Shown here: one piece after another, positions 2,131-18,489 of the stretch | Position numbering within the stretch: the first letter of the stretch is position 1 | Layout: every line of letters starts with the position of its first letter | Assembly (NCBI RefSeq): GCF_028683095.1 | Contig: NZ_JAJUBC010000028.1 | Span: forward strand, 1-64,000 | Reading direction: 5' to 3' | Source: Enterovibrio gelatinilyticus | Lineage (GTDB): Bacteria > Pseudomonadota > Gammaproteobacteria > Enterobacterales > Vibrionaceae | Length of the DNA stretch: 64,000 nt | Position numbers and translations under genes: made by a program | Notes under the pieces: model-generated | Database searches by the model: none | Seen by the model: only the letters and a program-made list of their open reading frames with translations | What the model was told of the DNA's origin: nothing

Positions 2131-2151
2131 GTTTTTCCTTTGAAAAATAAT

Positions 2152-2176
2152 AAAGGGCGGCTTCGCCCTTTTTTAA
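2152..2176 (+). terminator. Rho-independent terminator downstream of ppaC
   Basis: aaagggcg-gctt-cgcccttt hairpin followed by a T-run (ttttt). Confidence 0.7.
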
Positions 2177-2311
2177 CGTCCTAATTTTGAACGATGTTTT
2201 TTATTGTGCATTTCTCTTTCCACTTTTTAGTGAAATATTCGACGAATCACTATTGATGGGTGTCACAAAAAAATGCATAATCGTGCAAAATTTAGCCAAG
2301 AGGAAGACACT

Positions 2312-2425
2312 GTGTCACAAAAGATTACTGCCAAATTATCCAAGTACGCCCCACTTTTCGTAATGATGGGTGTCACTATTGCATTTACCATGATCAATGC
2401 AATGTACTGGGGTGGAGTACTCTAA
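2312..2425 (+). CDS. Possible small hydrophobic protein (37 aa; VSQKITAKLSKYAPLFVMMGVTIAFTMINAMYWGGVL)
   Basis: GTG start 6 nt after an AGAGGAAG Shine-Dalgarno. An upstream extended -10-like TGcATAAT sits at ~2283. The predicted product has a single TM-like segment. A terminator follows at 2509-2536. The ORF is below the ORF-track size cutoff. Confidence 0.3.
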   Translation: MSQKITAKLSKYAPLFVMMGVTIAFTMINAMYWGGVL

Positions 2426-2508
2426 TAAGGATACGGTGCGGTGTCATCATTGACACTGCTCTTGCTCAAGTGAATGAGCACTTCCCTCGGCACGTAAACC
2501 GAATGAAT

Positions 2509-2536
2509 AAACCCAAGCCAATCGCTTGGGTTTTTG
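2509..2536 (+). terminator. Rho-independent terminator
   Basis: acccaagc-caatc-gcttgggt hairpin followed by ttttt. Confidence 0.6.
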
Positions 2537-2654
2537 TATATTTGGGATAAAAAGTTATCGCAGATGGACAAATTAGAACGATTTATCGGACGGTGAAAGA
2601 GTTAAGCTTTGCAAGGCGAAAAACTTCAGCCAGCGGATTAAATAGATTCAGAAA

Positions 2655-2684
2655 CGAAAAAAGACGCCTTAGCGTCTTTTTTCT
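2655..2684 (-). terminator. Rho-independent terminator downstream of the minus-strand tRNA-Ser (near-palindromic, likely bidirectional)
   Basis: aagacgc-ctta-gcgtctt hairpin flanked by A-run and T-run on both sides. Confidence 0.65.
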
Positions 2685-2690
2685 TAAATA

Positions 2691-2778
2691 TGGCGGTGAG
2701 TGAGAGATTCGAACTCTCGATACGTTGCCGTATACACACTTTCCAGGCGTGCTCCTTCAGCCACTCGGACAACTCACC
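2691..2778 (-). tRNA. serW: tRNA-Ser (anticodon GGA)
   Basis: The reverse complement GGTGAGTTGTCCGAGTGGCTGAAGGAGCACGCCTGGAAAGTGTGTATACGGCAACGTATCGAGAGTTCGAATCTCTCACTCACCGCCA is near-identical to E. coli tRNA-Ser(GGA). It has a long variable arm, the anticodon loop cCTGGAAag and an encoded 3' CCA. Confidence 0.93.
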
Positions 2779-3133
2779 GTGCTTGTGTCGTTAGACTTGT
2801 CGTCTCAACGGGCGCTACTATAAGTATTTACTCTTTCAGGGTCAATGCTTTGAACAACACGTAACGTTCAATTGCTCGGCATTTAGCCAGCCCCATGCAT
2901 CACTAAACAATCTCAATTAGTAGAGCTCAGAGCCGAACCTTACCTTCAGTTTGAAGAAGGAACCTCAGGTGTGGATAAAATCACGGATACCAGCGGATTG
3001 AAACTCAAATCAATGCTCACAAACCTTCGTAATATCACGTCACAGATTCAACGCGACCCTCAAATTCACAACCCCAATAATAAACCCCAGCATTGCTGCC
3101 GAGGCTCTATGTGTATCGCAACAGAACGTTATA

Positions 3134-4195
3134 TCAAGACAAGGTCTGCTCTAACGCTTTCTTCAACTCCAGCTCTGCCTTTTCTATCACCTGCTGCGCA
3201 TGCTCGCGCTGGGCTCTGCCCTCTTTGACGCGAGACAAGGTGTTATTCAAGGTTTCAATCGTCAGCTGATTCACGGTTTCCAATGAATCCAGATCAAGAA
3301 TGCCACGCTGATAGTTCTCGGCAATTTGCTCTTCCAGCGCCTTGAGCTTCTCGGCATTCTGAACATACTGCTTGTTGGTGTAGTCTTTCACCGCACGCGT
3401 CACCTTCAACGCTTTCTCTTTTTCATAATTGGAAATCGCAATCAAGAACTGGCGTTTCCATAGCGGGAAGGTGTTATGGACGATATCTTGAATATCCTCC
3501 ATCAACATTTTATTGCCTTCCTGCGAGAGGCGAATTTGAGGCGCAGTTTGAATAGCAGCAAGACGCGTCAACTCAAGGTTGTGAACACGCTTTTCAAGAC
3601 GTGCAATCGCTTGAGAAGCATCACGGTACTTTTGCGCATCAAGGGCATCACCACTTTGCTCAGATTGCGCAAGCAAATCAGGCAGGACGTTCTGTGTGAG
3701 ATCGTTCAGTTTGTATTTACCCGCCGCGATGTACTGATCTAACCCCGCAAGCAACTCTAAGTTATGATCATAAAGCGTATCTAGCTGCGTAATATCATGC
3801 GCAAGTTTTACTTCCTGCGCTTCTAAGCTGCCTGATAACTGCTCTAATTGACCTTTCACCGAATCAAAACTCGCCGAGAATTTTTTGAAAGAATCAAAAA
3901 GTTCGCCCACCAACGGAAGCCTCGATAACAGGCTCTTCTTACCAAGGTTGTCGAACTCAGCACTGTCCATGGATGACACCATGGCGTGCAGAATATCTCC
4001 TGCCTCACCGCTGTCACGAACACGGACTTGCTCTAAGACTTCATCAGAGAATGCGGTGATCTTTTCCAACGCACCTTTACCAAAGGTAATCGTGGCAACG
4101 GTATCAAACGCATCAAACTGTTCAGCCAAAGCCACGATTTGAGGTGTCACCTCAACATCCAGCACCTGACTCTGAGGATTCGTCAATTCAGTCAT
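3134..4195 (-). CDS. TelA/YaaN-like toxic-anion-resistance family protein (all-alpha, coiled-coil), last gene of the cassette operon
   Basis: 353 aa, strongly helical and Q/E/L-rich. Its size and composition fit the TelA/KlaA family (PF05816-like). SD GGGAG lies 6 nt upstream of the ATG. The gene starts 15 bp downstream of the PLD gene. Confidence 0.45.
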   Translation of the reverse strand: MTELTNPQSQVLDVEVTPQIVALAEQFDAFDTVATITFGKGALEKITAFSDEVLEQVRVRDSGEAGDILHAMVSSMDSAEFDNLGKKSLLSRLPLVGELFDSFKKFSASFDSVKGQLEQLSGSLEAQEVKLAHDITQLDTLYDHNLELLAGLDQYIAAGKYKLNDLTQNVLPDLLAQSEQSGDALDAQKYRDASQAIARLEKRVHNLELTRLAAIQTAPQIRLSQEGNKMLMEDIQDIVHNTFPLWKRQFLIAISNYEKEKALKVTRAVKDYTNKQYVQNAEKLKALEEQIAENYQRGILDLDSLETVNQLTIETLNNTLSRVKEGRAQREHAQQVIEKAELELKKALEQTLS

Positions 4196-4210
4196 TGGAT
4201 CTCCCTGTCT

Positions 4211-4915
4211 CTATGACGGCTTATGGCAGGGAAACTTCTGCCATAGCGTTTCAAACTGCCTTGAGAACGCAGTGACAAACCTGCGATCATCGGTAAGCGT
4301 AATATCTTCCTGATTATATTTGGAGGCACTGCGCGTCCAGTTAAAACTGCCGTTAATCAGTCTTTGTTCGTCAAATATCGCAAACTTATGGTGCATATGA
4401 TACTGAGTCGTATCAATTTTGACGGCAACGCCTTGTTCGGCGAGGTACTCTACGTCACTCCCTCTGTCGTACATCTTGTCGTTGTCCGTCACGATACGCA
4501 CCTTAATCCCGCGCTTGTGAGCATCAAGAATATGCTTGGTCAAATCGTTGTCTGCAATGGTAAACACGCAGATATCAATGGAATGACGAGCGAGTTTTAG
4601 CTGTTCAATAATACCCGCAGCACACGTTCTCCCAGGCGAGAACCAACTCGTTGCGGTTTCCGCTGAACTCGCGCTCATGATGTTATCTAGCACTTTCACA
4701 ACGCGTTCCAGCCAACGTACCAGAGCTGCAGCATCGCCTTGGTTTACGATTTCTTTCTGCACCAATTTGAAACTCAAATTACGCAGATAAGAACGGTCTT
4801 CATCGCCTAACACCGATTCAGCAAGCTCAGCTTGAAGCTCTCGGCGTTCATTGTCGTCTAAGCGGTAATCTTCAATCGAGGCTTCCAGCCACGCCGACCA
4901 TTTTTGTCGATTCAT
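4211..4915 (-). CDS. Phospholipase D-like (single HKD motif) Nuc-type phosphodiesterase/nuclease-family protein
   Basis: The C-terminal domain carries HMHHKFAIFD...INGSFNWT, the canonical HxK(x4)D(x6)GSxN PLD/Nuc motif, with a single copy. There is a ~100-aa N-terminal helical extension. The ATG directly abuts the upstream stop (TAAATG), with a GGAGG SD inside the upstream gene's last codons. Confidence 0.7.
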   Translation of the reverse strand: MNRQKWSAWLEASIEDYRLDDNERRELQAELAESVLGDEDRSYLRNLSFKLVQKEIVNQGDAAALVRWLERVVKVLDNIMSASSAETATSWFSPGRTCAAGIIEQLKLARHSIDICVFTIADNDLTKHILDAHKRGIKVRIVTDNDKMYDRGSDVEYLAEQGVAVKIDTTQYHMHHKFAIFDEQRLINGSFNWTRSASKYNQEDITLTDDRRFVTAFSRQFETLWQKFPCHKPS

Positions 4916-7900
4916 TTAATTGCCTCCTTGGCTGTTACCACCAAAGCGGGCAACATGTTGGTTCAGCATGGCGAGCTGTTGTACTACTTGTCCTGCACGG
5001 TCTTCGGAATCACCCATCATTTGTTGGCGTTGATATCCGTCAGTGATTTCCTGCCAACGTCCTTGTTGTTCCGGTGTCATATCACCACGCAGTTCAGCAA
5101 GTTTCAGCAGGTTTTCTTCCGTACCCGCCGCCAATGTCTGGGCTTCACCTTGATAGTGATCTTGCAGCATGGTGTTGAGTTCTTCATCGGTCATGACTGA
5201 CGATATTTTCTCGGCAAGTTTGTTCATGTTTCGATAAGAACCCTGCAGCTTAAACGGTGGCTCAACACGATACTGATCCGCCGTAGCGGCGGATTTGATG
5301 TACTGCTGATTCACCTTGAGCACGGTTTGCTGTGCCATCATCATTTTTTGCAGCGTAGAGACAATCTCATTGGATTCGGTCGCCGAATACGAATGGCTCA
5401 TGTCACTCAGTGCAATGCTCTCCCCTTCTGCCATGCGAACAAAGCGGTAAAGGTCATTCAAGTCTCTGGTCGCTAGCGGTGCAAGTACAGAATTCGACGT
5501 CAGAGAGTTCTCAATGAAGCTGAGTTCGAACGCTTGCTTCTGATCAGACAGCATGTCACCAAGGTTGTAGATATCTGCACGGTTCGACAACATATCCGGA
5601 ATTCGGAACGCTTCACCGGTTTCGGTATACGGGTTACCCGCCATCACAACCGCGAACTTCTTGCCACGCATGTCATAGGTTTTGGTTTTGCCTTTCCACG
5701 TACCTTCAATGCGACGTGTTCCATCACACAGTGAAATGAATTTCTGAAGAAATTCAGGGTGGGTGTGCTGAATATCATCAAGATACAAGAGCACGTTGTT
5801 ACCCATTTCAAAGGCGAGGTTAATTTTTTCGATTTCGCGCGCGGCGTTTTGATCAGGCGCATCAGCAGGATCAAGTGAGGTGGCTTGGTGCCCAATAGAC
5901 GGGCCATTGATCTTCATAAACACCAAGCCAAGCTTGTGTGCTACGTATTCGATCAAGGTGGTTTTACCGTAACCCGGCGGCGAAATCAGTAGCAGCATCC
6001 CCATCAAATCGGTGCGTTTCTTATCACCCATGGTGCCCATCTGTTTGGCAAAGTTATCGCCAATCAATGGCAGATAGCTTTCGCTGATGAGTTTGTTTCG
6101 AACAAAGGATGTGAGAGGACGAGGTTTGAATTCCCCGAGTCGGAAATCATCTTTCGCGGTATTAAGGAGCTCTGTGCGTTGATTGAGGTAAGCATCAAAC
6201 TGCGGAACCACCGCAGTTCTGTGATGCTCGTTACGCTGAATAAAATCATCTAACACCAGTGTTAACTGACCTTTTTCAATGCGATCATGCTCACCCAATA
6301 AGCCGTCAATGCTGCAAAGCAGCGAGAAGTCGACACTGCCGATGGAGAAATTAGAACATGATTTCAACACAGTGATGGTCGCGGCTTCCAGAACAAACGC
6401 TTCGCCATACTGCTTACGAGACGTATAAGCAGTCAACCATTGTTTGTGATCAGCAAACGCTGTTTCAATGGCTTCATCAGCTTGATGCCAACCCAGGCTG
6501 CGACGAAACTGAAGGTAGTCTTCACAAAGTGTTAGGGCATCCTGACTGACTTCAATGTTGAGTTCACTCTGACCCAGTAAGTTCACCAGATACTCTGCAG
6601 CCTCATTCGCTTGTTCAGCCTCGAGTAACGCCACCAGCTGAGTTTGCAACAGTTGATAAGCCTCTGACGAATTCAAATGTTCACGCAATAGCTGCGCATT
6701 GATGGCTTGTTGACGATAATGTTCCACTATTTGGCTATCTTGAGCGAGCAACCACAGCAACGCAGAGGAACGGGCTGATTGGCTGAATCGTAGCAATCCC
6801 GCTTGCTGGTAGATAGGTAACACTTTGTCCAAAATACGAATGGCATCGTTGTCGTGAATACCTTTCACATAACCTTCTTTGTAGCGAGGTGCAGCGAATT
6901 TTTGTATGCACTCACTCAACGTGCCTTCTTTTTGATCGGCATAGAGCTTATCGAGACTCAACCCATCGGTATTGAGTTCAGCACCGTGCAGGATCAAGTA
7001 CGCCAAATATTCTGCGCGATACACGTCTTCGCTTTCTGATGCCACATCCAAACGGGACATAGATTGGAGCGTTAGGAAGGTTTCATCTTCAACAGATTGG
7101 TAAAAATCCGTACCCGAAATGTGCGTAGACAATTGACCGTCATGGTCAACAAGACTGAGATCGAGCGGCTGTTGATTCACACTAAAACGGTGCTTACCAA
7201 GACGAAGGACTTTACCTCCCTGCTCGAAGATATCCTGATTGTCACGCAGCGAACGCAAAGACTGATCCTGCAGTGACTTGATCTTCGAATCGACACTGTC
7301 AGCCTTCACACTGTCACCCAACTCTCGAATCGTTGTCGACAGTTGATGCAGTTTCAGCACCATTGCATCTGTTGCGAAGTAGCTGTTAAGCCCCGCCACA
7401 TCATCAAAGCGTTCAACGCGCTTTTCGATGCTCGACATGGTGACGTTAGCAGCTTGCAGAAGGTTCTGAATACGACGCTGTTGAGCCGCAATCAATTGCT
7501 GTTTGTGATTATCGAGCGTTGATTGAATTTCATCTCGTTTGGCATAAATTTCAGCGAGAAACTGGTCAAAGTCAGCAAAACGAGATTCAAGCTTGTCCAA
7601 TTGACCAACCAGTTTCGCTAGCTGATTGTCACAGTCGTCAGGACTTGTTGCCTGCTCCATCGCACTGCTAACAGATTGACTAAGCAACTTAAACTGCGCA
7701 CTGAATTCAGCTTGCGCTTCTTCACTTTGAAGGCCTTTAGACTTACCACGAAGTTTCGCGGAGACAGTATTGAGCATTGACGACACTTCCGTCGTCAAAT
7801 CTAAAATCCGTGTCGCTTGTGTCGGGTCATCCGTTTCAATATCCGTGACTTCTTCCGTCACCAATTGAAGTTCGCTTCTTAGCGTTTCAACCTGATCTTG

Positions 7901-9796
7901 CAGGATCTGAATTTCAGCGGTTTTATCCACCTCTTCAAGCTGCGTTTCAATGGTCTGGATTTGCTTTTTAAAAGGCAGGTAAGCCTTTTCATCCTGCAGA
8001 AGGTTTAGCAACTGCAGATTCAGACTTTCGCGCTGCTCCTGAAGTGTTTCCAGTAAGGCATCAATCCGCTCTTCATCAATGTAATGCTGCTGACGCAACG
8101 CCATCACTGCACCCACCTGCCCTTTCACTTCTGAAAGCAAGGTAAGCAAAGTGTTGGCTTGTTCTTTCGGTGCAAGTTTGATCTTTCCGATCAGGTCAGA
8201 AACGATCCTGTTCTGATCTTCAATACTTTGTGCGGCATGACTTTGAAGCTGCTGAACCTTGGCGAATTCATCGATGATTTTGTCCGCCGTGCCCATCAGT
8301 TCACTAATGGCACCTCCCATGCCTAACGCGTATTCGTGGCCGAGCCAGGTGTAGTGATCAAGCGTTGATTGACATTGCTTGAGAAGCATTTCAAACGCCG
8401 CCTGCGTCACCTCCTCTGTCTGTGCTAATTGGCAAATTGACAAAACAGACGATAAGGCGCGAACCAGTTCAGTATTGCCAAGATTAAATAGCGGGCTGCT
8501 GCCATCACCTTTGGCATTTTCGAGGGCATAGTGTTCTGGCGTTGAAAACGGCGTATCCCAAATACGCAAAGGGTGGATAGTGGAGGCTTCCGCATTTTCA
8601 GACAATTGAAAAACAAGGAAGCGTCCATCGGGATAAAGGCTATAACCATGGCTTTCCATGGGTGCTTCGAACTTTTTCTCAATCAGGTTATAAGTGAAGG
8701 CAATGTAGTAACCGTCCACCGCATTGAAGAAGAAATACAGAATGTCTTCACCGTTGGGTGAAATGACTTTTTGGAAGAATTTGAGATTATTGGCAGGAAA
8801 ATCGAACTGCTTGCTTTCACCATTGGCGAGCACATAACCGTTTGCGTAAAGCACACCATGATCTTCAGGCAAGGATTTTGCGCTTTCACGCAGCGCATCT
8901 GCCCGTGTCACGGATTGATTAAGTGGGTTGTAAAGAAAGTAGCGGCTATGTTTTTCGCGGTTTGGCTTCACCCGCAATGCAATCAGCTCGCCAATAAAGG
9001 CATAGTCGATTTGCGCATCGGCAATACTCTGATGCGCATCTTCCACATCTTCGCGATAAATGCCTTTTCCTTCTGAGGTGTTGTCTTCAACCTTGATGGT
9101 CAAATCCCCACCCACACACTCAACGAATAGCTTATCTCGAATAGACACATGCGGATGTTCACCCAACACATGATCTTCACGCGTCGTAGCTATCCAATCA
9201 AAATCATGCTGTGTCGCGCTTTCGAGCGGTGCATGTCCGTAAGAATCCATGTACTCAGCGGAATTGGCATTCAACTGGAAGCGAAACACCTTACGGTCTT
9301 CGGGTCGGCTGCCAATTTGAAACGCGATATATAGAATACTCTCCTGACGCGAGATTTGAGATAAGCGTGCGTCCCGGTAATAGGTAAACAGCTCGGTAAA
9401 CTCATGCACGAAGCGCGCATCATTCAAGAAGCTGTTTTCTAACGTTAAAGACTCGACACGAAACGTACCTTCATTTTCATGAAGTTGATAAAGGCCAAAC
9501 ACATCATCCAATGATGGCGCTGCCTTCATACCTACCTGCACGTGGTAACCAAACAACAATTGTTGGTTTACCTGCGCCATATCGATGGGAATACATTTGG
9601 CATCAGTTTGTACATTGGCTTTACCAATCAGCGAGAGCTCTTGGCCACCAAATACGTCCTGACGTTGATGATTGAAAGACTGAGAAAGGGTTTTTAGCTG
9701 GTTGCCCTGTTGGGACAGGCGGGATTTGAGAACCTCGTACGCACCGCCTTCACTCACAGCTTGTTGAGTCGTCTCTGACATAATAATACCTATCAA
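4916..9796 (-). CDS. Giant (1626 aa) uncharacterized protein: N-terminal beta-rich domain, ~650-aa coiled-coil and C-terminal MoxR-like AAA+ ATPase
   Basis: The C-terminal region carries Walker A LISPPGYGKTTL (codons ~5950-5985), Walker B NVLLYLDDIQH and a sensor-1-like AVVMAGNPY, the pattern of the MoxR/AAA_5 clade. The central region is heptad-rich (LQ..LE..). The ORF-track start is TTG 9796, with an AGAGG SD 5 nt upstream. An alternative ATG at 9781 (MSETTQQ) has an AGGU SD. Confidence 0.6.
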   Translation of the reverse strand: MIGIIMSETTQQAVSEGGAYEVLKSRLSQQGNQLKTLSQSFNHQRQDVFGGQELSLIGKANVQTDAKCIPIDMAQVNQQLLFGYHVQVGMKAAPSLDDVFGLYQLHENEGTFRVESLTLENSFLNDARFVHEFTELFTYYRDARLSQISRQESILYIAFQIGSRPEDRKVFRFQLNANSAEYMDSYGHAPLESATQHDFDWIATTREDHVLGEHPHVSIRDKLFVECVGGDLTIKVEDNTSEGKGIYREDVEDAHQSIADAQIDYAFIGELIALRVKPNREKHSRYFLYNPLNQSVTRADALRESAKSLPEDHGVLYANGYVLANGESKQFDFPANNLKFFQKVISPNGEDILYFFFNAVDGYYIAFTYNLIEKKFEAPMESHGYSLYPDGRFLVFQLSENAEASTIHPLRIWDTPFSTPEHYALENAKGDGSSPLFNLGNTELVRALSSVLSICQLAQTEEVTQAAFEMLLKQCQSTLDHYTWLGHEYALGMGGAISELMGTADKIIDEFAKVQQLQSHAAQSIEDQNRIVSDLIGKIKLAPKEQANTLLTLLSEVKGQVGAVMALRQQHYIDEERIDALLETLQEQRESLNLQLLNLLQDEKAYLPFKKQIQTIETQLEEVDKTAEIQILQDQVETLRSELQLVTEEVTDIETDDPTQATRILDLTTEVSSMLNTVSAKLRGKSKGLQSEEAQAEFSAQFKLLSQSVSSAMEQATSPDDCDNQLAKLVGQLDKLESRFADFDQFLAEIYAKRDEIQSTLDNHKQQLIAAQQRRIQNLLQAANVTMSSIEKRVERFDDVAGLNSYFATDAMVLKLHQLSTTIRELGDSVKADSVDSKIKSLQDQSLRSLRDNQDIFEQGGKVLRLGKHRFSVNQQPLDLSLVDHDGQLSTHISGTDFYQSVEDETFLTLQSMSRLDVASESEDVYRAEYLAYLILHGAELNTDGLSLDKLYADQKEGTLSECIQKFAAPRYKEGYVKGIHDNDAIRILDKVLPIYQQAGLLRFSQSARSSALLWLLAQDSQIVEHYRQQAINAQLLREHLNSSEAYQLLQTQLVALLEAEQANEAAEYLVNLLGQSELNIEVSQDALTLCEDYLQFRRSLGWHQADEAIETAFADHKQWLTAYTSRKQYGEAFVLEAATITVLKSCSNFSIGSVDFSLLCSIDGLLGEHDRIEKGQLTLVLDDFIQRNEHHRTAVVPQFDAYLNQRTELLNTAKDDFRLGEFKPRPLTSFVRNKLISESYLPLIGDNFAKQMGTMGDKKRTDLMGMLLLISPPGYGKTTLIEYVAHKLGLVFMKINGPSIGHQATSLDPADAPDQNAAREIEKINLAFEMGNNVLLYLDDIQHTHPEFLQKFISLCDGTRRIEGTWKGKTKTYDMRGKKFAVVMAGNPYTETGEAFRIPDMLSNRADIYNLGDMLSDQKQAFELSFIENSLTSNSVLAPLATRDLNDLYRFVRMAEGESIALSDMSHSYSATESNEIVSTLQKMMMAQQTVLKVNQQYIKSAATADQYRVEPPFKLQGSYRNMNKLAEKISSVMTDEELNTMLQDHYQGEAQTLAAGTEENLLKLAELRGDMTPEQQGRWQEITDGYQRQQMMGDSEDRAGQVVQQLAMLNQHVARFGGNSQGGN

Positions 9797-9840
9797 TCCC
9801 GCCTCTTAAGAAGCGGGATTCTGCGAGAAGAAATGAAGGG

Positions 9841-11931
9841 TTATTTATCGTCTGATGACGGTTCCATTGAGCTTTGAATTTTCTTTAACAGCTCAGTTGC
9901 CCCACCTTGCGAGTTCAACAAACTTGCTAACGCAACATTGCTCAAGTCACTGCTTTTCAGTTCAGTGTTCTCCAAAATAGCTTTCAAATCTTCTGGTAGG
10001 CTTCGGTTTCCATCCACATACTCGGACACCAATGGGTTCAGCACTTTCGATTGCTCAAATTTGGCATCAATTGCAGAGGCATCCATGATGGTACGGCGAA
10101 TCTGTTCCATACCTTCACCACCAAACAGACGGATATCAGCTTTTGACAGTGCCTCTGCCAATGCTTTCGCGTTTTCACTGACCACGGTTTTCTGTGCATC
10201 AATGCGCGCGATTTCCAGATCTTTATCTTGTTGCAGTTGCATCACCCACTTATCGTGGTCGCGCGTATGCTCATCGTATTGTTGCGCCGCTTCAAAGCGT
10301 GCAGTTTGTGCTTCTGCTTCTGCCAAGCCCTTAGCACGAAGTGCCTGCGCTTCTGCTTCACCTGCACTTTGCATGGCAAACGCTTCTGCCTCGCCAGTTT
10401 CTTTAATGGCCTGAGCGCGCTCACGATCCACTTCGACTTCAGCAAGACCCGTTGCACTGATCATTTCTTTCTCAGCATGTGCCATACGCTCTTTGGCTGC
10501 GGCTTCACGTTCTTTCGCCACATAGCCTGCTTCAGCACGTTTGGTCGTGACAATATGCTCCGCTTCCGCTTCGCGTGTCTTCACGGCTAGGTCATTTTCC
10601 GCATCACGGGTTTTCACTTTAAGTTCGGCTTCATTTTCAATCAGCAAACGCTCTGCACGTTCTTTTGCTGCATCTTTCTCAGCGCGAGCACCAACCAATA
10701 ATTCAAGCTGCGCGGCTTCTGCAGCCGCTTCTGCTTCAATCATCTTCACGCGTTTCTCACGGCCTACACGCTCATTAACACGAAGGTTTTCAGTCTCTTC
10801 CTCTTCACGCGCAATTTTACGTTCAATCTCAACACGCTGAGAGCGTGTTTCGGAAACAGATTTAAGCGCTTCTTCAACCGTTGTCTCTTTCTGCATTTCA
10901 CGCTCAGCCACTTCCGTCGCTGTACGTACTTTTTCTGTTTCAACAGAACGGGTCAGCTCTTCTTGCTGAATTGCCACTTGGCGCTGATTGGCGATACGGG
11001 TCATTTCAACTTCCATTTCCACGCTTTCACGCTTCTTGGACACTTCTTCTTCCGTTTCTAATTTCGCCAACTCAGTGACGCGCAAATACTCCTGTCGCTT
11101 CTCAGCCGCTAGCGCTTCTTCTTGCGCGGTAATAATGTCGACTTCACGTTGAGTACGCGCAATACTCTCTTTTTCTTGCTTATCTAACTGCAGACGGTTT
11201 GCTTCCGCTTCAACGTTTTTCTTCTTCATCGTTGTGCGTTCATCCTGACGGATAGCATTCGTTTCTGTGTTCTTTTGAGCAGTAATTGCTGAGATTTTAC
11301 GAATACCTTCAACATCAAGAATGTTGTCCGGGCTATGAGCATCCAGCGCGGTTTGGTCAACTTTATCGATAACCACATCGTAGATTTTGAAACCATCCAT
11401 TTCGCTGCCGATAACTTCAACAACCGCATCACGGAACGCTCGGCGATTGGTCAGCAATTCTTCAAACTCAAATTGCTTTACCGCCGTTTTCAATGCTTCT
11501 GAAAATTTAGGTTGGAAGTGTTCTTTTAAACGTTCAAGATTCGAGGCTTCATGTGCTGTGAAGAGTTTGGCTACACGAACAATGTCTTCTTCTTCATGAT
11601 TTACACCGATATAAAAATCAACTCTTAAGTCCGCTCGGATGTTGTCTCGGCAGTGAAGACCTTCATATTCTTCGCCTTCCTGATCTTTACGACCACTGCG
11701 TACAACAGAGATTTTCTTACGTGTAATGTCCATATATTCGAATCGGTTAACAATCGGCCATACGAATGTGCCGGTTAACGAAGCGCGTGTACGGTGAAGT
11801 CCGTTCACAATAAGTGCGTCACCCTCACCACGTACTTTTTTATAACGAGAGGTGAGAAATACCATGACGAGAAGGAAAACGCCGATGCCAATGCCGATAA
11901 AAATGATGCTAGGGGAAATTTCCATTTCCAA
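9841..11931 (-). CDS. yqiK: Flotillin-like SPFH/band-7 domain protein (YqiK family) with long EA-rich coiled-coil
   Basis: An N-terminal TM helix is followed by an SPFH domain (…ALIVNGLHRTRASLTGTFVWPIVNRFEYMDI…), then ~400 aa of Glu/Ala/Lys/Arg-rich coiled-coil. The gene is paired with a YqiJ-like gene immediately upstream, as in the E. coli yqiJK operon. Confidence 0.8.
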   Translation of the reverse strand: MEMEISPSIIFIGIGIGVFLLVMVFLTSRYKKVRGEGDALIVNGLHRTRASLTGTFVWPIVNRFEYMDITRKKISVVRSGRKDQEGEEYEGLHCRDNIRADLRVDFYIGVNHEEEDIVRVAKLFTAHEASNLERLKEHFQPKFSEALKTAVKQFEFEELLTNRRAFRDAVVEVIGSEMDGFKIYDVVIDKVDQTALDAHSPDNILDVEGIRKISAITAQKNTETNAIRQDERTTMKKKNVEAEANRLQLDKQEKESIARTQREVDIITAQEEALAAEKRQEYLRVTELAKLETEEEVSKKRESVEMEVEMTRIANQRQVAIQQEELTRSVETEKVRTATEVAEREMQKETTVEEALKSVSETRSQRVEIERKIAREEEETENLRVNERVGREKRVKMIEAEAAAEAAQLELLVGARAEKDAAKERAERLLIENEAELKVKTRDAENDLAVKTREAEAEHIVTTKRAEAGYVAKEREAAAKERMAHAEKEMISATGLAEVEVDRERAQAIKETGEAEAFAMQSAGEAEAQALRAKGLAEAEAQTARFEAAQQYDEHTRDHDKWVMQLQQDKDLEIARIDAQKTVVSENAKALAEALSKADIRLFGGEGMEQIRRTIMDASAIDAKFEQSKVLNPLVSEYVDGNRSLPEDLKAILENTELKSSDLSNVALASLLNSQGGATELLKKIQSSMEPSSDDK

Positions 11932-11949
11932 CTCCTGATTTATATTCCG

Positions 11950-12564
11950 TTATGCTTTCGCTACCACGTAGCGATTTGAAGTGTCATCTTTGAAGACGAT
12001 GACCACTTCTTCTCCGTATTGAATCGTGCTTTCGTCTTGCAGCATGACATCAAGTAAAAACTCATTACCTTGATGCAATACCACGACTTCCCCTCTTTCT
12101 TTGTTAACGACGTTGCTGTGAACCCGCGCTTTCAGGCCAATATAGTCAACCTGAGCAAACGCCTTTTTACGGTCGAACAATGGCGCGAGTGGCTTTAACA
12201 ACAACGCAGATATTGCAAGGGAGAGGTAAGCAACGATTGGGATTGATGCGAGATCAATCAAAAGATTTGTAACGCCTGAAAACAGGCTGATATTCATTTG
12301 TGCGGAGTAAAACGACATGACGGTTGCGATAAAACACGATACACACAACGCAACCATAAGAGGGACTTTTGATAACACTTGAGGCAAAAGCAGACCTGCT
12401 CCCGGAATGTTATCAAGGTCAAAAATGTCGAGATCAGCCGTGAAGCCTTCCACCACATTAAAAACCAGATCTATGAGCATAATGAGGAAAAACACTACAA
12501 ACGGAATAAAAAATACGTTTGTAGGAAATGCCATCAGCATGCCCAGAAACTCACCAACTGCCAT
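11950..12564 (-). CDS. yqiJ: YqiJ/NfeD-like inner-membrane protein (membrane anchor plus C-terminal OB-fold), flotillin partner
   Basis: Hydrophobic N-terminal two-thirds. The C-terminus …VVIVFKDDTSNRYVVAKA resembles the E. coli YqiJ tail (…RFIVAKA). It ends 18 bp upstream of the flotillin gene. Confidence 0.7.
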   Translation of the reverse strand: MAVGEFLGMLMAFPTNVFFIPFVVFFLIMLIDLVFNVVEGFTADLDIFDLDNIPGAGLLLPQVLSKVPLMVALCVSCFIATVMSFYSAQMNISLFSGVTNLLIDLASIPIVAYLSLAISALLLKPLAPLFDRKKAFAQVDYIGLKARVHSNVVNKERGEVVVLHQGNEFLLDVMLQDESTIQYGEEVVIVFKDDTSNRYVVAKA

Positions 12565-12868
12565 ATAACGTTACTCTAAACAAAGTTTTATGTTTTATCG
12601 TTGTTTTGATGTCTAAGCTTTTTACAAAGCTGTCCAAGACTAACTGAGAATGGTCAGTTTTAAACCTATATAACAGGCTTATATGATTCGGTTCAAAAAA
12701 ATAGGCCGCCAAATTCTTATACAAGACACAAACTCGACCTTACAGCCAATGATTAAGAAATGAGACAATTACTGAGTGCTCTTCATTGCGATGACGATAA
12801 ATTTTTCGTTGAAATGAGCCTCATCGCAGAAACGAAAAAGCCCCAGCATTGCTGCTAGGGCTTCGAAT

Positions 12869-12912
12869 ATCGCGGTGAGGGAGACATGACTCGTCATTCT
12901 GCTACTCTCACC
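12869..12912 (-). pseudogene. Probable decayed tRNA-Ser remnant (internally deleted)
   Basis: atcgcggtgagggagacatgactcg… resembles the 3' end of the intact tRNA-Ser (tggcggtgagtgagagattcgaactctcg), and …ctctcacc resembles its 5' end. It is preceded by the same 'cagaaacgaaaaa + GC-hairpin' spacer architecture as the intact copies. Confidence 0.3.
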
Positions 12913-12946
12913 TTTCTGCTTCTTATGTTTTTCATAAGCCAGAAAC

Positions 12947-12977
12947 GAGAAAACCCAAGCATTTCTGCTTGGGTTTT
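12947..12977 (-). terminator. Rho-independent terminator downstream of the second tRNA-Ser
   Basis: cccaagc-atttct-gcttggg hairpin, followed by a T-run on the minus strand (gaaaa on plus). Confidence 0.6.
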
Positions 12978-12982
12978 GAATG

Positions 12983-13070
12983 TGGCGGTGAGTGAGAGAT
13001 TCGAACTCTCGATACGTTGCCGTATACACACTTTCCAGGCGTGCTCCTTCAGCCACTCGGACAACTCACC
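12983..13070 (-). tRNA. serX: tRNA-Ser (anticodon GGA), second copy, 88/88 identical to the copy at 2691-2778
   Basis: Identical 88-nt sequence. The upstream block (gacttatcgtctcaacgg…aactatag) is conserved with the copy-1 upstream block (gacttgtcgtctcaacgg…tactataag), likely the promoter region. Confidence 0.93.
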
Positions 13071-13270
13071 GTTTTGTTGGACTTATCGTCTCAACGGGGC
13101 GTAACTATAGGGAAGCGCTTTAGTCAGGTCAACGATAAATCGCAAATTTGAGCGCAAGTGTTTAAGTTTCCATCGGCTTGAGTTGTTTTTACACTGCGTT
13201 ACGCATTTTGCTCTCGCATTCTCATTCTGGCTGATAGAATATTACCCAACACTGGAACAGAGAACGAATC

Positions 13271-13846
13271 ATGACCAACTCGCTAGCACAATTTATCACT
13301 GAAAACGGATTAGAGCCTTTTGTACTGTCCGCTGAACAAACGGAAGGGTTTGTCACCGCCATGGCTGCGGCTCCTAACCTTATCGACCCAAGCGAGTGGC
13401 TTGCATTTATGTGGGGCGGTGAAGACGAAGCACCGTTCAATAACCCAGAACAACTCGAAGCGTACGCAGGTATCATCGTCGACATGTGGAACGCACAACG
13501 CCAAGCTCTGCTCGCTAATGAATGGACATGGCCAGAAGCCTGCGCATTAAGCGAAGCCGAGATTGTGAACCAAGCAACCCGTGAATACTGCGAAGGTATG
13601 CTTCAAGGCTGGACCCTAGCTCGTGATGATTGGGAAACCATTATGCCTGAGGAGTCGCCAGAGAATGCATTGCTTGGCGGCGTACTCCTTTCTATTAGCT
13701 TGCTGTTTGACCCAGAGTCCGCACTCGCGACGATGGACGAACTCGGTGCGGCAGAACTCGCGCAGTTTGAGGAAATATTTAACGGTATGCCCGTCATGCT
13801 ATGTGGTTTAACAATGCGCGGATACCAAATGGTAGAGCAGCAATAA
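13271..13846 (+). CDS. UPF0149 (YgfB/YecA N-terminal-like) family protein
   Basis: 191 aa, acidic and helical, with size and composition typical of UPF0149. It lacks a SEC-C motif. Confidence 0.5.
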   Translation: MTNSLAQFITENGLEPFVLSAEQTEGFVTAMAAAPNLIDPSEWLAFMWGGEDEAPFNNPEQLEAYAGIIVDMWNAQRQALLANEWTWPEACALSEAEIVNQATREYCEGMLQGWTLARDDWETIMPEESPENALLGGVLLSISLLFDPESALATMDELGAAELAQFEEIFNGMPVMLCGLTMRGYQMVEQQ

Positions 13847-14184
13847 TCTTAAACTAACTCGCTCACTGCAATGACTGACATTGACAAGCAATACCAATAA
13901 TAAAGCGGCCTAAACGGCTTATGCCATTCAGATTCTTCCTGCAGTCATACATTTACGCAGGAAGAATCATCAAGAGCTAAAGAAGAGATTGGTGTAGCGA
14001 GCTATTCTGTTTACAAATCTCTGACGCAGCTATTGCCGATTCTACCCAGCAAAAGTGACTGAATACTTGTTCTGATTGGTATTGTTTTGCGCAAACTTTT
14101 CGCGCAGTTTGCCAACAATCCTGATATAGTCCTGCCCCTGTTTTTATCCGCCATTACCCTGGCATTACATTCTGGAATTTTCCT

Positions 14185-15570: not shown

Positions 15571-15605
15571 TCGAACAAGCTATATAGTGCGCCATATCGC
15601 ACTGT

Positions 15606-15652
15606 AAAAAATGCCCTCATCCAGAAATGGCATGAGGGCATTTTCGTTTTTT
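15606..15652. terminator. Bidirectional rho-independent terminator between convergent dbpA and the DUF336 gene
   Basis: atgccctcat-ccagaaatggc-atgagggcat 10-bp stem, followed by ttttcgtttttt. It is A-rich on the other side. Confidence 0.75.
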
Positions 15653-15668
15653 GTCCAAGCTGACTTTC

Positions 15669-16166: not shown

Positions 16167-16320
16167 ACCTAAATCTCCATGAGTTCATCATATTGCTCGC
16201 AACACAATCTAACTCCCCCAAATTGCCCCATACTTTCATAAACATTACACCTTAGTAATGAACGCCAAATCCCATGTTCACTTTGGTAAGTTACGGAGAA
16301 CACAGCAAAGGAGACAACCA

Positions 16321-18445: not shown

Positions 18446-18448
18446 ATA

Positions 18449-18478
18449 CATGGGCGAGTACCAGCACATCGCCCATGT
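18449..18478. terminator. Bidirectional terminator hairpin between the sensor kinase and the BASS transporter gene
   Basis: catgggcga-…-tcgcccatg 9-bp stem. Confidence 0.5.
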
Positions 18479-18489
18479 AATTCTCTAAA

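What the first reader, a model, noticed from the sequence alone, without database searches (positions are those of the whole stretch)
2691..13070. Two identical full-length tRNA-Ser(GGA) genes bracket the ~10.2 kb cassette; a decayed third copy and repeated terminator-spacer units suggest an insertion into a tandem tRNA array
The 88-nt tRNA sequences at 2691-2778 and 12983-13070 are identical and co-oriented. Each is preceded by a conserved upstream block (gacttRtcgtctcaacgg…) and followed by a 'cagaaacgaRaaa + GC hairpin' spacer. A third spacer unit at 12826-12862 is followed by an internally deleted tRNA-like remnant (12869-12912), and another spacer-like hairpin sits at 3086-3108 just beyond TelA. 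This pattern is what remains when cargo DNA is inserted within a tandem tRNA repeat. It would explain how the yqiJK-ATPase-PLD-TelA block sits in an otherwise conserved ppaC…dbpA neighbourhood. No integrase or transposase is present, so the mobilisation mechanism is unclear.
Basis: seen in the sequence. Interest (0 to 1): 0.6.

Follow-up and report, generated by a model that had tools for sequence, protein, structure and literature searches.

The report
Foreign operon between twin tRNA-Ser genes
A five-gene membrane/ATPase/nuclease operon was recently imported from another Enterovibrio species into the short gap between two resident tandem tRNA-Ser genes, with no integrase involved; this is a clear but fairly ordinary example of an integrase-free gene-transfer hotspot.

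Summary
Two identical 88-nt tRNA-Ser(GGA) genes lie on the minus strand at 2691-2778 and 12983-13070, each with its own promoter and terminator. They bracket a co-oriented five-gene operon: NfeD-like, flotillin-like, DUF3686/AAA+ ATPase, PLD and TelA. The host is Enterovibrio makurazakiensis-like, not Vibrio.

In the three closest species (E. calviensis, Enterovibrio sp. 27052020O, 'E. norvegicus' FF-33) and in Grimontia hollisae, the ppaC-to-UPF0149 interval holds only tRNA-Ser array units and no operon genes. Three of these loci have two complete tRNAs 194-253 bp apart.

The operon is 98.3-98.4% identical in nucleotides to that of E. norvegicus (four-fold-site identity 0.95-0.97). Core genes of the same two genomes are 71-81% identical (four-fold 0.35-0.52). 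This shows recent inter-species transfer.

Both tRNA units are resident. Foreign sequence starts at or inside the tRNA2/terminator unit.

The 'decayed third copy' is a degenerate RtT-type pseudo-tRNA repeat, a known kind of tRNA-operon element.

There is no integrase and no room for one. The same operon sits away from any tRNA in Vibrio, Photobacterium and Grimontia marina. Other lineages carry different cargo at this array.

Most likely mechanism (inferred): recombination anchored in the tRNA/terminator repeats. Interest is modest. The uncharacterised cargo is the more intriguing part.

The parts
2649..2690 (-). Terminator of tRNA-Ser copy 1 (AGACGC-loop-GCGTCT hairpin, T-run, then CGTTTCTG)
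   Evidence: Sequence read. CAGAAACGAAAAA motif at 2649. 100% identical over 45 nt in the conspecific L019 and 0.76 identical to the tRNA-A terminator of L002, so it is resident.
2691..2778 (-). tRNA-Ser(GGA) copy 1, the resident distal copy ('tRNA-A')
   Evidence: ARAGORN. Rfam tRNA 51.5 bits. Identical to copy 2. Its upstream 60 nt are 0.82-0.85 identical to the tRNA-A units of L001/L002/L003.
2779..2884 (-). Leader and promoter of tRNA copy 1 (TTGACC-17-TATAGT at 2845..2817), resident sequence
   Evidence: Promoter scan. Window 2684-2884 matches E. calviensis L001 9372-9572 at 89%.
2885..3078 (.). About 190 bp of non-coding DNA of unresolved origin between the tRNA-1 promoter and the TelA-distal hairpin
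   Evidence: The only BLAST matches beyond 2889 are the window itself and the conspecific L019. There is weak resemblance of 2885-2935 to the E. calviensis inter-tRNA spacer.
3079..3112 (-). Hairpin of the tRNA/RtT-terminator family just downstream of the TelA stop, preceded by GCGATA like a pseudo-tRNA 3' end
   Evidence: Direct repeat D3, 82% to 12835-12862. Exact 15-mer shared with 12841-12855. A hairpin of the same family follows TelA in E. norvegicus at L012 16667-16702.
3134..4195 (-). TelA-family protein (353 aa), last gene of the operon
   Evidence: Pfam PF05816, 260 bits. 100% aa identity and 0.95 four-fold-site identity to E. norvegicus L014.
4211..4915 (-). PLD-like (HKD, PLDc_2) protein, 234 aa
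   Evidence: Pfam PF13091, 106.6 bits. Weak similarity to NucT, DrmC, DpdK and MkoC, all below family cut-offs.
4916..9781 (-). 1621-aa DUF3686 + DUF7902 + AAA+ ATPase (databases call it 'DNA repair ATPase')
   Evidence: Pfam PF12458 527.6 bits, PF25472, AAA_5/AAA. 99.5-99.7% aa identity to E. norvegicus proteins and 100% to the Enterovibrio sp. ZSDZ42 protein. PDB matches cover only the P-loop region.
9841..11931 (-). Flotillin/YqiK-like membrane protein (694-696 aa): N-terminal TM segment, divergent SPFH region, long coiled coil
   Evidence: No Pfam hit on its own. Full-length homologues at 38-58% identity carry PF01145 Band_7 and are named flotillin/YqiK by their sources.
11950..12564 (-). 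204-aa membrane protein, first gene of the operon; NfeD/YqiJ-like by architecture only
   Evidence: No Pfam or NCBIfam hit. The AF2 single-sequence model (pLDDT 51.7) shows helices 1-125 and a C-terminal beta domain 159-203, too weak for fold search.
12565..12826 (-). Operon leader. The proximal ~170 nt are conserved with the G. marina operon, which has no tRNA nearby. The distal part is specific to Enterovibrio.
   Evidence: Alignments A5 and A6. 84.7% to E. norvegicus over 12565-12767. No sigma-70 consensus site on the minus strand.
12827..12939 (-). Degenerate RtT-type unit: short spacer, pseudo-tRNA remnant (12869-12912) and its own terminator hairpin (12837-12864)
   Evidence: It aligns at 73-78% to units in relatives whose upstream and pseudo-tRNA part scores 74-82 bits on Rfam RtT RF00391. 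The window copy itself gives no RtT hit at E<=1.
12940..12982 (-). Terminator of tRNA-Ser copy 2
   Evidence: Terminator scan 12977..12950. 0.82-0.93 identical to array terminators in most of the compared genomes (resident relatives and E. norvegicus alike), so it does not discriminate donor from recipient.
12983..13070 (-). tRNA-Ser(GGA) copy 2, the resident proximal copy ('tRNA-B') and probable site of the left crossover
   Evidence: ARAGORN. Its upstream 60 nt are 0.88 identical to the tRNA-B units of L001/L002. Sequence just downstream of its terminator is positionally homologous to the E. norvegicus clade, not to E. calviensis.
13071..13132 (-). Leader and promoter of tRNA copy 2 (TTGACC-17-TATAGT at 13132..13104), resident sequence
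   Evidence: Promoter scan. Window 12944-13960 matches L001 9672-10692 at 87.6%.

Best explanation
The window comes from an Enterovibrio makurazakiensis-like chromosome.

Resident structure. The locus was a short tandem array: ppaC, a small ORF, tRNA-Ser(GGA)-A, tRNA-Ser(GGA)-B, UPF0149, dbpA. Each tRNA is its own transcription unit with a promoter and a hairpin terminator.

Foreign segment. About 10 kb now occupies the former inter-tRNA spacer. In the direction of transcription it consists of:
- a degenerate RtT-type pseudo-tRNA/terminator unit;
- a ~260-nt leader;
- a five-gene operon: NfeD-like membrane protein, flotillin/YqiK-like protein, a 1621-aa DUF3686-DUF7902-AAA+ ATPase, a PLD/HKD protein and TelA;
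- a terminator hairpin of the tRNA-array family.

Shown. The segment is absent from the orthologous site of the closest species. Its coding part is nearly identical to the operon of E. norvegicus, a much more distant species. In that clade the operon sits beside a tRNA-Ser(GGA) in the same dbpA neighbourhood and diverges roughly in step with its flanks (most clearly for E. baiacu). So the operon was imported recently from an E. norvegicus-clade donor.

Inferred. Integration did not use a site-specific recombinase. It used host recombination on incoming DNA, most plausibly after natural transformation. The left crossover lay in the identical 88-nt tRNA gene/terminator. The right join lay somewhere in 2885-3133, either by short homology in the array-type terminator hairpin or by illegitimate joining.

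Mosaic. The 5' 350 nt of the first gene plus the leader are about 92% identical to E. norvegicus, and the RtT remnant 66-79%. This indicates either an unsampled mosaic donor or an older import whose coding part was later overwritten by an E. norvegicus sensu stricto allele.

Function of the layout (inferred). The two tRNA genes stay intact. Two terminators upstream and one downstream insulate the operon from them.
For: Empty site.
- E. calviensis L001, Enterovibrio sp. L002 and G. hollisae L007 have ppaC, the small ORF, two tRNAs 194-253 bp apart and UPF0149 (plus dbpA in L001/L002), with no tblastn hit to any cargo gene.
- Window 2684-2884 matches L001 9372-9572 and window 12937-13960 matches L001 9672-10692. 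So about 10.05 kb replaces a ~95-bp spacer.

Foreign origin.
- Against E. norvegicus GCA_005146365.1 (L014 and L020 come from the same contig), the cassette is 98.4% nt identical, in 200-nt bins mostly 0.96-1.00 (0.915-0.945 over 12200-12599).
- Against the same genome, UPF0149 is 71%, dbpA 74.5% and nadA/tol-pal/cyd 80-81.5% identical.
- Four-fold-site identity is 0.945-0.965 for four cargo genes and 0.885 for p204, against 0.35-0.52 for ten core genes.

Direction of transfer.
- In the E. norvegicus clade the operon has one conserved context.
- The window allele nests inside that clade's diversity: L023 88.8%, E. baiacu 85.9%.

Resident tRNAs.
- Upstream 60 nt of tRNA2 and tRNA1 match the tRNA-B and tRNA-A units of the close relatives at 0.82-0.88, against 0.53-0.73 for donor units.
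- Sequence immediately after the tRNA2 terminator is homologous to the donor clade only.

No integrase.
- The five genes fill 3134-12564 and none has a recombinase domain.
- None is annotated within 10 kb upstream in L019. The genes checked downstream of the array to about 19.4 kb have no recombinase domain, and from there the window is collinear with relatives.

Not a self-targeting element.
- The same operon lies with no tRNA within 7-10 kb in V. hyugaensis, V. campbellii chr2 and Photobacterium GJ3 chr2; none is seen in the G. marina contig either, though it has only ~650 bp upstream.
- It is absent from IMG/VR and from true plasmids.

Hotspot.
- Other cargo occupies the same array elsewhere. 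G. sedimenti has an 8.5-kb polysaccharide cluster next to a truncated tRNA 3' end.
- E. nigricans has yhfZ-PTE-yhfT and other genes between two tRNA-Ser copies.
- E. qingdaonensis has NorR-Hcp.

Independent assembly.
- L019 is 99.25% identical and has the same ppaC-to-cassette junction. The window's DbpA is reported on a contig of the same length as that contig.

General precedent.
- Many HGT hotspots lack integrases and show homologous recombination at their flanks (PMC5635113).
Against: - The recombination mechanism is inferred, not shown.
- The right junction is unresolved. The 190 bp at 2885-3078 match nothing except the conspecific strain. The hairpins flanking the insert share only 28 nt at 82%, which is short for RecA-dependent exchange.
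- The array terminators are too alike to place the left crossover exactly.
- The leader and remnant are much less similar to the sampled donors (66-92%) than the coding part. So a single simple event from a sampled donor does not explain everything.
- Competence of these Enterovibrio strains was not examined.
- Only two strains with this arrangement were seen.
Confidence: 0.75

Rival explanations
1. Classical tRNA-targeting genomic island. A tyrosine-recombinase element integrated at the 3' end of a tRNA-Ser or pseudo-tRNA, leaving imperfect att repeats (the two hairpins). It later lost its integrase.
For: - Imperfect 28-nt direct repeats containing a pseudo-tRNA 3' end (GCGATA) plus hairpin flank leader+operon at 12835-12862 and 3079-3106.
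- In G. sedimenti a truncated tRNA 3' end borders a different cargo.
Against: - There is no recombinase domain in any of the five genes and no spare coding space.
- None was found in the other cargos at this site or in the E. norvegicus-clade loci, apart from an unrelated IS110 in one strain.
- The same operon is not tRNA-linked in other genera.
- It is not found in viral contigs or true plasmids.
- The repeats are only 82% identical although the cargo is 98% identical to the donor.
Confidence: 0.1
2. Ancestral arrangement. The operon sat between the tRNA-Ser genes in the common ancestor and was deleted by tRNA-tRNA recombination in E. calviensis, Enterovibrio sp. 27052020O, FF-33 and Grimontia.
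For: - Direct repeats of identical tRNA genes would readily delete the intervening DNA.
- E. norvegicus also has the operon near dbpA beside a tRNA-Ser.
- The leader and remnant are older-looking, at 66-92% identity.
Against: - Four-fold-site identity of the cargo to E. norvegicus is 0.95-0.97, while core genes are saturated at 0.35-0.52.
- Even the least similar coding part (about 92%) is far above the core identity of 71-81%.
- All of the closest relatives have an empty site.
Confidence: 0.04
3. Intragenomic translocation. The operon moved within the same genome from another tRNA-Ser(GGA) locus through a circle excised by tRNA-tRNA recombination.
For: - Enterovibrio genomes carry several tRNA-Ser(GGA) copies, and in E. 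norvegicus the operon lies between two copies 13.6 kb apart.
Against: - The cargo's synonymous divergence shows it belongs to the E. norvegicus lineage, not the host lineage.
- Genes that accompany it in E. norvegicus (SodN, DUF1456, DEAD, CoA-transferase) are absent from the 64-kb window.
- A within-genome step after import cannot be excluded.
Confidence: 0.06
4. Assembly artefact. A contig was mis-joined across the identical tRNA repeats.
For: - Identical 88-nt repeats can mislead assemblers. Some short-read contigs of E. norvegicus (L016, L024) start and end at or just next to the tRNA-Ser repeats that flank this region.
Against: - An independent assembly (GCA_050336585.1, L019) has the same ppaC-tRNA1-TelA junction at 99.25% identity. 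The window's DbpA is reported on a contig of the same length.
- Unique sequence on both sides of each tRNA is continuous with resident promoters.
Confidence: 0.02

Closest known systems
Integrase-free horizontal-transfer hotspots between conserved core genes (Oliveira, Touchon & Rocha 2017, PMC5635113)
   Same: - The variable interval is bounded by conserved core genes (ppaC/small ORF and UPF0149/dbpA).
- Different lineages carry different cargo.
- There are no mobility genes.
- The donor-like tract has sharp borders, implying host recombination.
   Different: Here the recombining borders appear to be the repeated tRNA/terminator units inside the spot, not the flanking protein-coding core genes. 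Those genes keep the recipient's own divergent alleles right up to the tRNAs.
E. coli tyrT-tyrV locus with distal rtT repeats (Rfam RF00391 RtT RNA)
   Same: - Tandem identical tRNA genes are followed by repeated units that each end in a copy of the tRNA 3' end.
- Relatives of this locus have units scoring 74-82 bits on the RtT model directly downstream of tRNA-Ser(GGA).
- The window's remnant aligns to the 3' half of those units.
   Different: - The tRNA is Ser(GGA), not Tyr.
- The window copy is truncated and does not reach any RtT score.
- A 9.4-kb operon is lodged after the unit.
- The background on tyrT/rtT is from my own knowledge and from the passage read.
tRNA-linked genomic islands / integrative elements (tyrosine-recombinase mediated)
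   Same: - The cargo is next to a tRNA gene.
- It is absent from close relatives.
- It is flanked by short imperfect direct repeats that include a (pseudo)tRNA 3' end.
   Different: - There is no integrase.
- Both tRNA genes are complete, and the insert starts about 45 nt or more beyond the tRNA 3' end.
- The composition is indistinguishable from the host.
- The operon is not tRNA-associated in other genera.
SPFH/flotillin-NfeD operons (yqiJK, yuaFG; PMC2636767) and Ter/TelA stress modules (PMC7824862 citing Anantharaman et al. 2012)
   Same: - A small membrane protein gene precedes a flotillin-like gene (for the known operon logic).
- TelA is a sub-membrane component of Ter-type stress/defence systems.
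   Different: - Here these genes are fused into one operon with a giant DUF3686-AAA+ ATPase and a PLD nuclease-like protein.
- No paper in the searchable library mentions DUF3686/PF12458.
- No PADLOC model covers the set.

Membership tests
Tandem tRNA gene array (independent tRNA transcription units) | Two or more complete, co-oriented copies of the same tRNA gene | tested here: met
   ARAGORN and Rfam find two identical tRNA-Ser(GGA) genes on the minus strand.
Tandem tRNA gene array (independent tRNA transcription units) | Copies are adjacent at the orthologous site in related genomes | tested here: met
   Gaps of 245, 194 and 253 bp in L001, L002 and L007. The flanks are syntenic.
Integrase-mediated tRNA-linked genomic island | Site-specific recombinase gene inside or next to the island | tested here: not met
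   Pfam and NCBIfam on all five genes find no recombinase domain. ORFs fill 3134-12564. The flanks checked have no recombinase domain.
Integrase-mediated tRNA-linked genomic island | Insertion at the 3' end of a tRNA gene, with att direct repeats that duplicate that end | tested here: inconclusive
   Both tRNAs are complete. The only flanking repeat is a 28-nt hairpin at 82% identity, preceded by GCGATA.
Integrase-mediated tRNA-linked genomic island | Absent from the same site in close relatives | tested here: met
Integrase-mediated tRNA-linked genomic island | Composition deviating from the host | tested here: not met
   GC is 0.468 against 0.464. Tetranucleotide correlation is 0.893, only just below the range of other 9.4-kb chunks (0.907-0.959).
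Integrase-free HGT hotspot (homologous-recombination driven) | The same core-gene-bounded interval holds different accessory genes in different lineages | tested here: met
   Polysaccharide cluster in L005, yhfZ/PTE/yhfT in L011, NorR-Hcp in L009, and CoA-transferase-BCCT-FeADH plus SodN-DUF1456-DEAD in E. norvegicus.
Integrase-free HGT hotspot (homologous-recombination driven) | Imported tract much more similar to a foreign lineage than the flanking core genes are | tested here: met
   98.4% against 71-81% nt identity. Four-fold-site identity 0.95-0.97 against 0.35-0.52.
Integrase-free HGT hotspot (homologous-recombination driven) | Acquisition depends on host RecA and DNA uptake | not testable with these tools
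   Needs transformation and recA experiments.
RtT RNA (Rfam RF00391) | Match to the covariance model at or above the gathering score (45 bits) | tested here: not met
   No RtT match at E<=1 in window 2000-14000. Homologous units in L017, L007 and L010 score 74-82 bits.
RtT RNA (Rfam RF00391) | Lies downstream of a tRNA gene and ends in a copy of the tRNA 3' end followed by a terminator | tested here: met
   The remnant ends ...CTCCCTCACCGCGA and is then followed by a hairpin. It aligns at 73-78% with the relatives' units.
TelA (PF05816) | Pfam gathering score | tested here: met
   260.3 bits against a cut-off of 30, covering model positions 3-331 of 332.
SPFH/flotillin (YqiK-like) | Band_7/SPFH domain (PF01145) | tested here: inconclusive
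   No direct Pfam hit, even at E<=10. Full-length homologues at 38-58% identity carry PF01145.
NfeD/YqiJ | NfeD C-terminal OB-fold domain | tested here: inconclusive
   No profile hit. The AF2 model has pLDDT 51.7, with helices followed by a beta domain only.
Known anti-phage defence systems (PADLOC-DB 2.0) | Component models matching the system's core proteins | tested here: not met
   Only generic PLD similarities (DrmC, MkoC, DpdK) and a weak coiled-coil hit for the ATPase. Nothing for TelA, p696 or p204.

The most novel reading that the evidence does not exclude
Two readings are not excluded.

(a) Tandem tRNA/RtT-terminator arrays in Vibrionaceae act as integrase-free 'landing pads'. Their short, near-identical, strongly conserved units give foreign operons portable homology across species whose core genes are too diverged (70-80%) to recombine. 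This would explain the repeated, different cargos at this one array.

(b) The cargo is itself an undescribed membrane-anchored stress or anti-phage system: NfeD-like, flotillin-like, DUF3686-AAA+ and PLD proteins plus TelA, conserved in this order across Vibrionaceae. The ATPase has homologues (~45% identity) in Pseudomonas and other Gammaproteobacteria. Its near-identity across species would reflect recent selective spread.
Probability: 0.25. Interest if true: 0.6.

Novelty: new member of a known kind. Interest (0 to 1): 0.35.

Why it matters
- It is a clean, datable example of gene flow between Enterovibrio species whose core genes are saturated at synonymous sites. The transfer delivered a whole operon into a tRNA array without any mobile-element machinery.
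- It shows that conserved tRNA/terminator repeats can define the borders of an import. Apparent 'decayed tRNA copies' in such arrays may be RtT-type repeats, which matters for annotation.
- It flags a widely conserved but unstudied five-gene operon (TelA-PLD-DUF3686/AAA+-flotillin-NfeD-like) that is being exchanged between species. That operon is a reasonable candidate for functional work.

Tried and rejected
- Exact-protein look-ups of the window's DUF3686 and UPF0149 proteins, and of the 100%-identical P0130, found nothing on record. The source lineage was identified through ppaC and DbpA instead.
- The metagenome scan with p204 returned only three 30%-identity hits. One was checked and is an FMN reductase, so the hits are spurious.
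- The IMG/VR scan with the ATPase found nothing.
- The plasmid search hit only 1.7-2.1-Mb records, which by their size are probably second chromosomes rather than plasmids.
- Literature searches for DUF3686, PF12458 and TelA+flotillin+PLD+AAA+ returned nothing. The 2012 Ter-systems paper is not held.
- The single-sequence AF2 model of p204 was too poor for fold search.
- Pfam at E<=10 gave nothing for p696 or p204.
- GC content and GC skew do not mark the insert.
- I tried to read a circle-integration signature (hybrid hairpins) from the two flanking hairpins. The TelA-side hairpin's left half is not donor-like, so I dropped that claim.
- A gathering-threshold Rfam run on seven loci listed tRNA matches only in L007, L010 and L025, missing ARAGORN-called tRNAs in the other loci. 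I rely on ARAGORN for tRNAs.
- The long inverted repeat I1 (2507-2531 / 13386-13410) was judged a chance match between a terminator and coding sequence.

Full report
**1. The observation**

ARAGORN finds only two tRNA genes in the window. Both are tRNA-Ser(GGA) on the minus strand, at 2691-2778 and 12983-13070. They are identical over all 88 nt, and each scores 51.5 bits on the Rfam tRNA model.

Read in the tRNA's own direction, each gene has three parts:
- A TTGACC-17-TATAGT promoter-like site, at 2845..2817 and 13132..13104.
- A conserved leader block, ...CCGTTGAGACGAYAAGTC....
- A hairpin terminator ending in ...CGTTTCTG.

The motif CAGAAACGARAAA occurs exactly three times, all in this array, against 0.3 expected for up to one mismatch. 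The hairpin core CCCNAGCATTKCTGC occurs three times, against 0.04 expected: at 12954 (tRNA2 terminator), 12841 (remnant terminator) and 3085 (just beyond TelA).

**2. What lies between the tRNAs**

Five co-oriented minus-strand genes fill 3134-12564, with gaps of at most about 60 nt:
- A 204-aa membrane protein with no family hit.
- A 694-696-aa protein with no direct Pfam hit. Its full-length homologues at 38-58% identity carry Band_7/SPFH and are named flotillin/YqiK.
- A 1621-aa DUF3686-DUF7902-AAA+ ATPase.
- A PLDc_2 protein.
- TelA.

No recombinase or transposase domain is present, and no coding room is left for one. No PADLOC model covers the set beyond generic PLD similarity.

**3. Whose genome, and what the site looks like elsewhere**

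A scan of one genome per species with the UPF0149 protein returned 11 Enterovibrio/Grimontia loci. The window's DbpA is identical to that of 'Enterovibrio makurazakiensis'. A conspecific assembly (L019) is 99.25% identical over 12.1 kb and has the same ppaC-tRNA1-TelA arrangement.

In E. calviensis (L001), Enterovibrio sp. 27052020O (L002) and G. hollisae (L007), the order is ppaC, small ORF, tRNA-Ser, tRNA-Ser, UPF0149 (followed by dbpA in L001 and L002). The tRNAs are only 245, 194 and 253 bp apart, and none of the five cargo genes is present. FF-33 (L003) has one copy plus a 47-bp fragment.

Window 2684-2884 aligns to L001 9372-9572, and window 12937-13960 to L001 9672-10692. So about 10.05 kb (2885-12936) stands where E. 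calviensis has a ~95-bp spacer.

**4. The cargo is foreign and recent**

The ATPase is 99.5-99.7% identical in protein to a cluster of E. norvegicus proteins.

In those genomes the operon has one conserved context. In the orientation with UPF0149-dbpA on the right, the order is:
- LysR, tRNA-Ser, DEAD, DUF1456, DUF2753, SodN, a 92-aa ORF;
- the operon;
- tRNA-Ser, CoA-transferase-like, LysR, BCCT, Fe-ADH, Aldedh, UPF0149, dbpA.

This is the same chromosomal neighbourhood, with additional blocks.

L014 and L020 come from the same contig of one E. norvegicus genome. Against that genome, identities to the window are:

| Region | nt identity | Four-fold-site identity |
|---|---|---|
| Cassette coding region | 98.4% (200-nt bins mostly 0.96-1.00) | 0.945-0.965 (p204 0.885) |
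| UPF0149 | 71% | core genes 0.35-0.52 |
| dbpA | 74.5% | core genes 0.35-0.52 |
| SBF/nadA/tol-pal/cyd | 80-81.5% | core genes 0.35-0.52 |

Selection cannot produce this contrast, so the operon was exchanged recently. The window allele nests inside E. norvegicus-clade diversity: the group represented by L023 is 88.8% identical and E. baiacu 85.9%. For E. baiacu the cassette's divergence matches that of its flanks (86% vs ~87%); for L023 the cassette (89%) is more diverged than the flanks (94-95%). The window's own close relatives lack the operon at this site. The direction was therefore E. norvegicus clade to the E. makurazakiensis lineage. The transfer pre-dates the split of the window strain from L019.

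**5. Where the foreign DNA begins and ends**

The 60 nt upstream of tRNA2 are 0.88 identical to the proximal (tRNA-B) units of L001 and L002. The 60 nt upstream of tRNA1 are 0.82-0.85 identical to the distal (tRNA-A) units of L001-L003. Donor units score only 0.53-0.73. Both tRNA genes are therefore the resident pair.

Immediately after the tRNA2 terminator comes the string GGCTTATGAAAAACATAAG..., then the pseudo-tRNA remnant, a hairpin and the leader. This is positionally homologous to the E. norvegicus clade and not to E. calviensis. So the left crossover lies in tRNA2 or its terminator. These are too conserved everywhere to place it more finely.

High identity (98% or more) to E. norvegicus sensu stricto runs from the TelA stop codon (3134) to about 12210. 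It then falls to about 92% over 12211-12660, with some sites E. baiacu-like. It is 66-79% over 12661-12960. The import is therefore a mosaic: either the donor was an unsampled recombinant, or an older import was later overwritten in its coding part.

On the other side, homology to the donor stops at the TelA stop, apart from a hairpin of the tRNA-terminator family present in both (window 3086-3108; L012 16667-16702). The next ~190 bp (2885-3078) match only the conspecific strain. Its origin is unresolved, so the right junction lies somewhere in 2885-3133.

**6. The 'decayed third copy'**

The remnant plus its terminator (12827-12912) recurs in G. indica, G. hollisae (two copies), E. paralichthyis (two copies) and one E. 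norvegicus strain (two copies), at 73-78% identity to the window's remnant unit. In four of those genomes the units, taken upstream through the pseudo-tRNA end, score 74-82 bits on Rfam RtT (RF00391, gathering score 45). RtT is the repeat family first described distal to the E. coli tyrT tRNA genes.

The window copy keeps only the 3' half and gives no RtT hit at E<=1. So it is a tRNA-derived element of a known kind, not necessarily a third tRNA gene that decayed in place.

**7. Is the operon a tRNA-seeking mobile element? No**

The same five genes, in the same order, lie in V. hyugaensis, V. campbellii (2.06-Mb replicon) and Photobacterium sp. GJ3 (1.69-Mb replicon) with no tRNA within 7-10 kb. 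The G. marina contig also shows no tRNA, though it has only ~650 bp upstream of the operon. The operon is absent from IMG/VR.

The last ~170 nt of the leader are conserved with G. marina, so the operon brings its own upstream region. However, no sigma-70 consensus site is seen there.

**8. The site is a hotspot**

- G. sedimenti has an 8.5-kb polysaccharide export/Wzy cluster between a truncated tRNA 3' end plus terminator and the full tRNA.
- E. nigricans has yhfZ-PTE-yhfT, DEAD, a deacetylase and DUF1456 between two tRNA-Ser copies 8.3 kb apart.
- E. qingdaonensis has NorR-Hcp between the tRNA and UPF0149.

None of these cargos showed a recombinase domain. This matches the documented class of HGT hotspots that lack mobile-element genes and turn over by homologous recombination (PMC5635113).

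**9. Mechanism**

Shown:
- The cargo is an insertion relative to close relatives.
- It is of foreign origin and was acquired recently.
- Both tRNA units are resident.
- No integrase is present.

Inferred: incoming DNA, most plausibly taken up by natural transformation, recombined using the identical tRNA gene/terminator as the left anchor. The right join was made either in the array-type hairpin (28 nt, 82%) or illegitimately. I put about 0.5 on this specific mechanism and about 0.9 on 'horizontally acquired insert between resident tandem tRNAs'.

Rivals, all disfavoured for the reasons given in their entries:
- A decayed integrase island.
- Ancestral presence followed by losses.
- Intragenomic translocation.
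- Mis-assembly.

**10. Verdict**

Corrections concern the strand, the genus, the nature of the remnant and the yqiJK labels. As a kind of feature it is a new member of a known class, so interest is modest. The unstudied, inter-species-mobile five-gene cargo is the part most worth follow-up.

Noticed in passing
window 15571-18535: A second indel relative to all relatives examined. An HbpS-like haem-degrading protein (15669-16166, minus strand) plus an OmpR-type response regulator and a histidine kinase (16258-18445) sit between dbpA and the SBF transporter gene. In L001, L002 and E. norvegicus L020, dbpA is followed within about 90-145 bp by the SBF gene (about 1.6 kb in L003).
   Followed up: partly
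window 18490-19353: The SBF-family transporter gene is 95% aa / ~80% nt identical to E. norvegicus. It is only 78% aa / ~70% nt identical to E. calviensis, the reverse of every other core gene compared. It may be another imported allele next to the indel above.
   Followed up: no
L017 20540-20670 and 20722-20852; L007 9013-9143 and 9191-9321; L010 7-137 and 190-320: Tandem RtT-type repeats (Rfam RF00391, 74-82 bits) lie downstream of tRNA-Ser(GGA) in Enterovibrio and Grimontia. In the A4 alignment these copies look much more alike across genera than neighbouring intergenic DNA does, which suggests constraint or concerted evolution.
   Followed up: partly
window 12211-12660: A mosaic lies inside the imported operon. 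The first ~350 nt of the first gene and the proximal leader are only about 92% identical to every sampled E. norvegicus group, with some sites E. baiacu-like. The rest is 98-99% identical.
   Followed up: partly
window 2273-2425: A 50-aa ORF with a hydrophobic C-terminus is conserved at 67-74% aa identity beside the tRNA array in seven of the eleven related loci (L001-L007). It is followed by its own hairpin terminator at 2509-2533. It is probably a real small membrane-protein gene.
   Followed up: no
L005 1073-1140 and 1583-9573; L011 1276-9792; L009 6038-9748: Other, unrelated cargos occupy the same tRNA-Ser array in other species. G. sedimenti has a polysaccharide export/Wzy cluster bordered by a truncated tRNA 3' end. 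E. nigricans has a yhfZ-PTE-yhfT block between two tRNA-Ser copies. E. qingdaonensis has NorR-Hcp.
   Followed up: partly
L017 6717-6804 vs 20401-20488; L025 6761-6848 vs 20401-20488: tRNA-Ser(GGA) exists as two alleles differing at 4 positions. Both alleles can occur in one genome at the two ends of the same region.
   Followed up: no
L012 vs L023, cassette vs flanks: Within 'E. norvegicus', the operon of the L023 group is more diverged from the sensu stricto group (89%) than the flanking genes are (94-95%). This hints at further allele replacement at this operon inside that clade.
   Followed up: no
L017 22679-23722: One E. norvegicus strain carries an IS110-family transposase about 2 kb beyond the distal tRNA-Ser. 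It is the only mobility gene seen near any of these loci, and its tRNA is followed by two extra RtT units.
   Followed up: no
window 3134-12564: The cargo's tetranucleotide profile correlates slightly less with the rest of the window (0.893) than any other 9.4-kb chunk does (0.907-0.959), although GC content is the same. This may simply reflect the coiled-coil-rich proteins.
   Followed up: no
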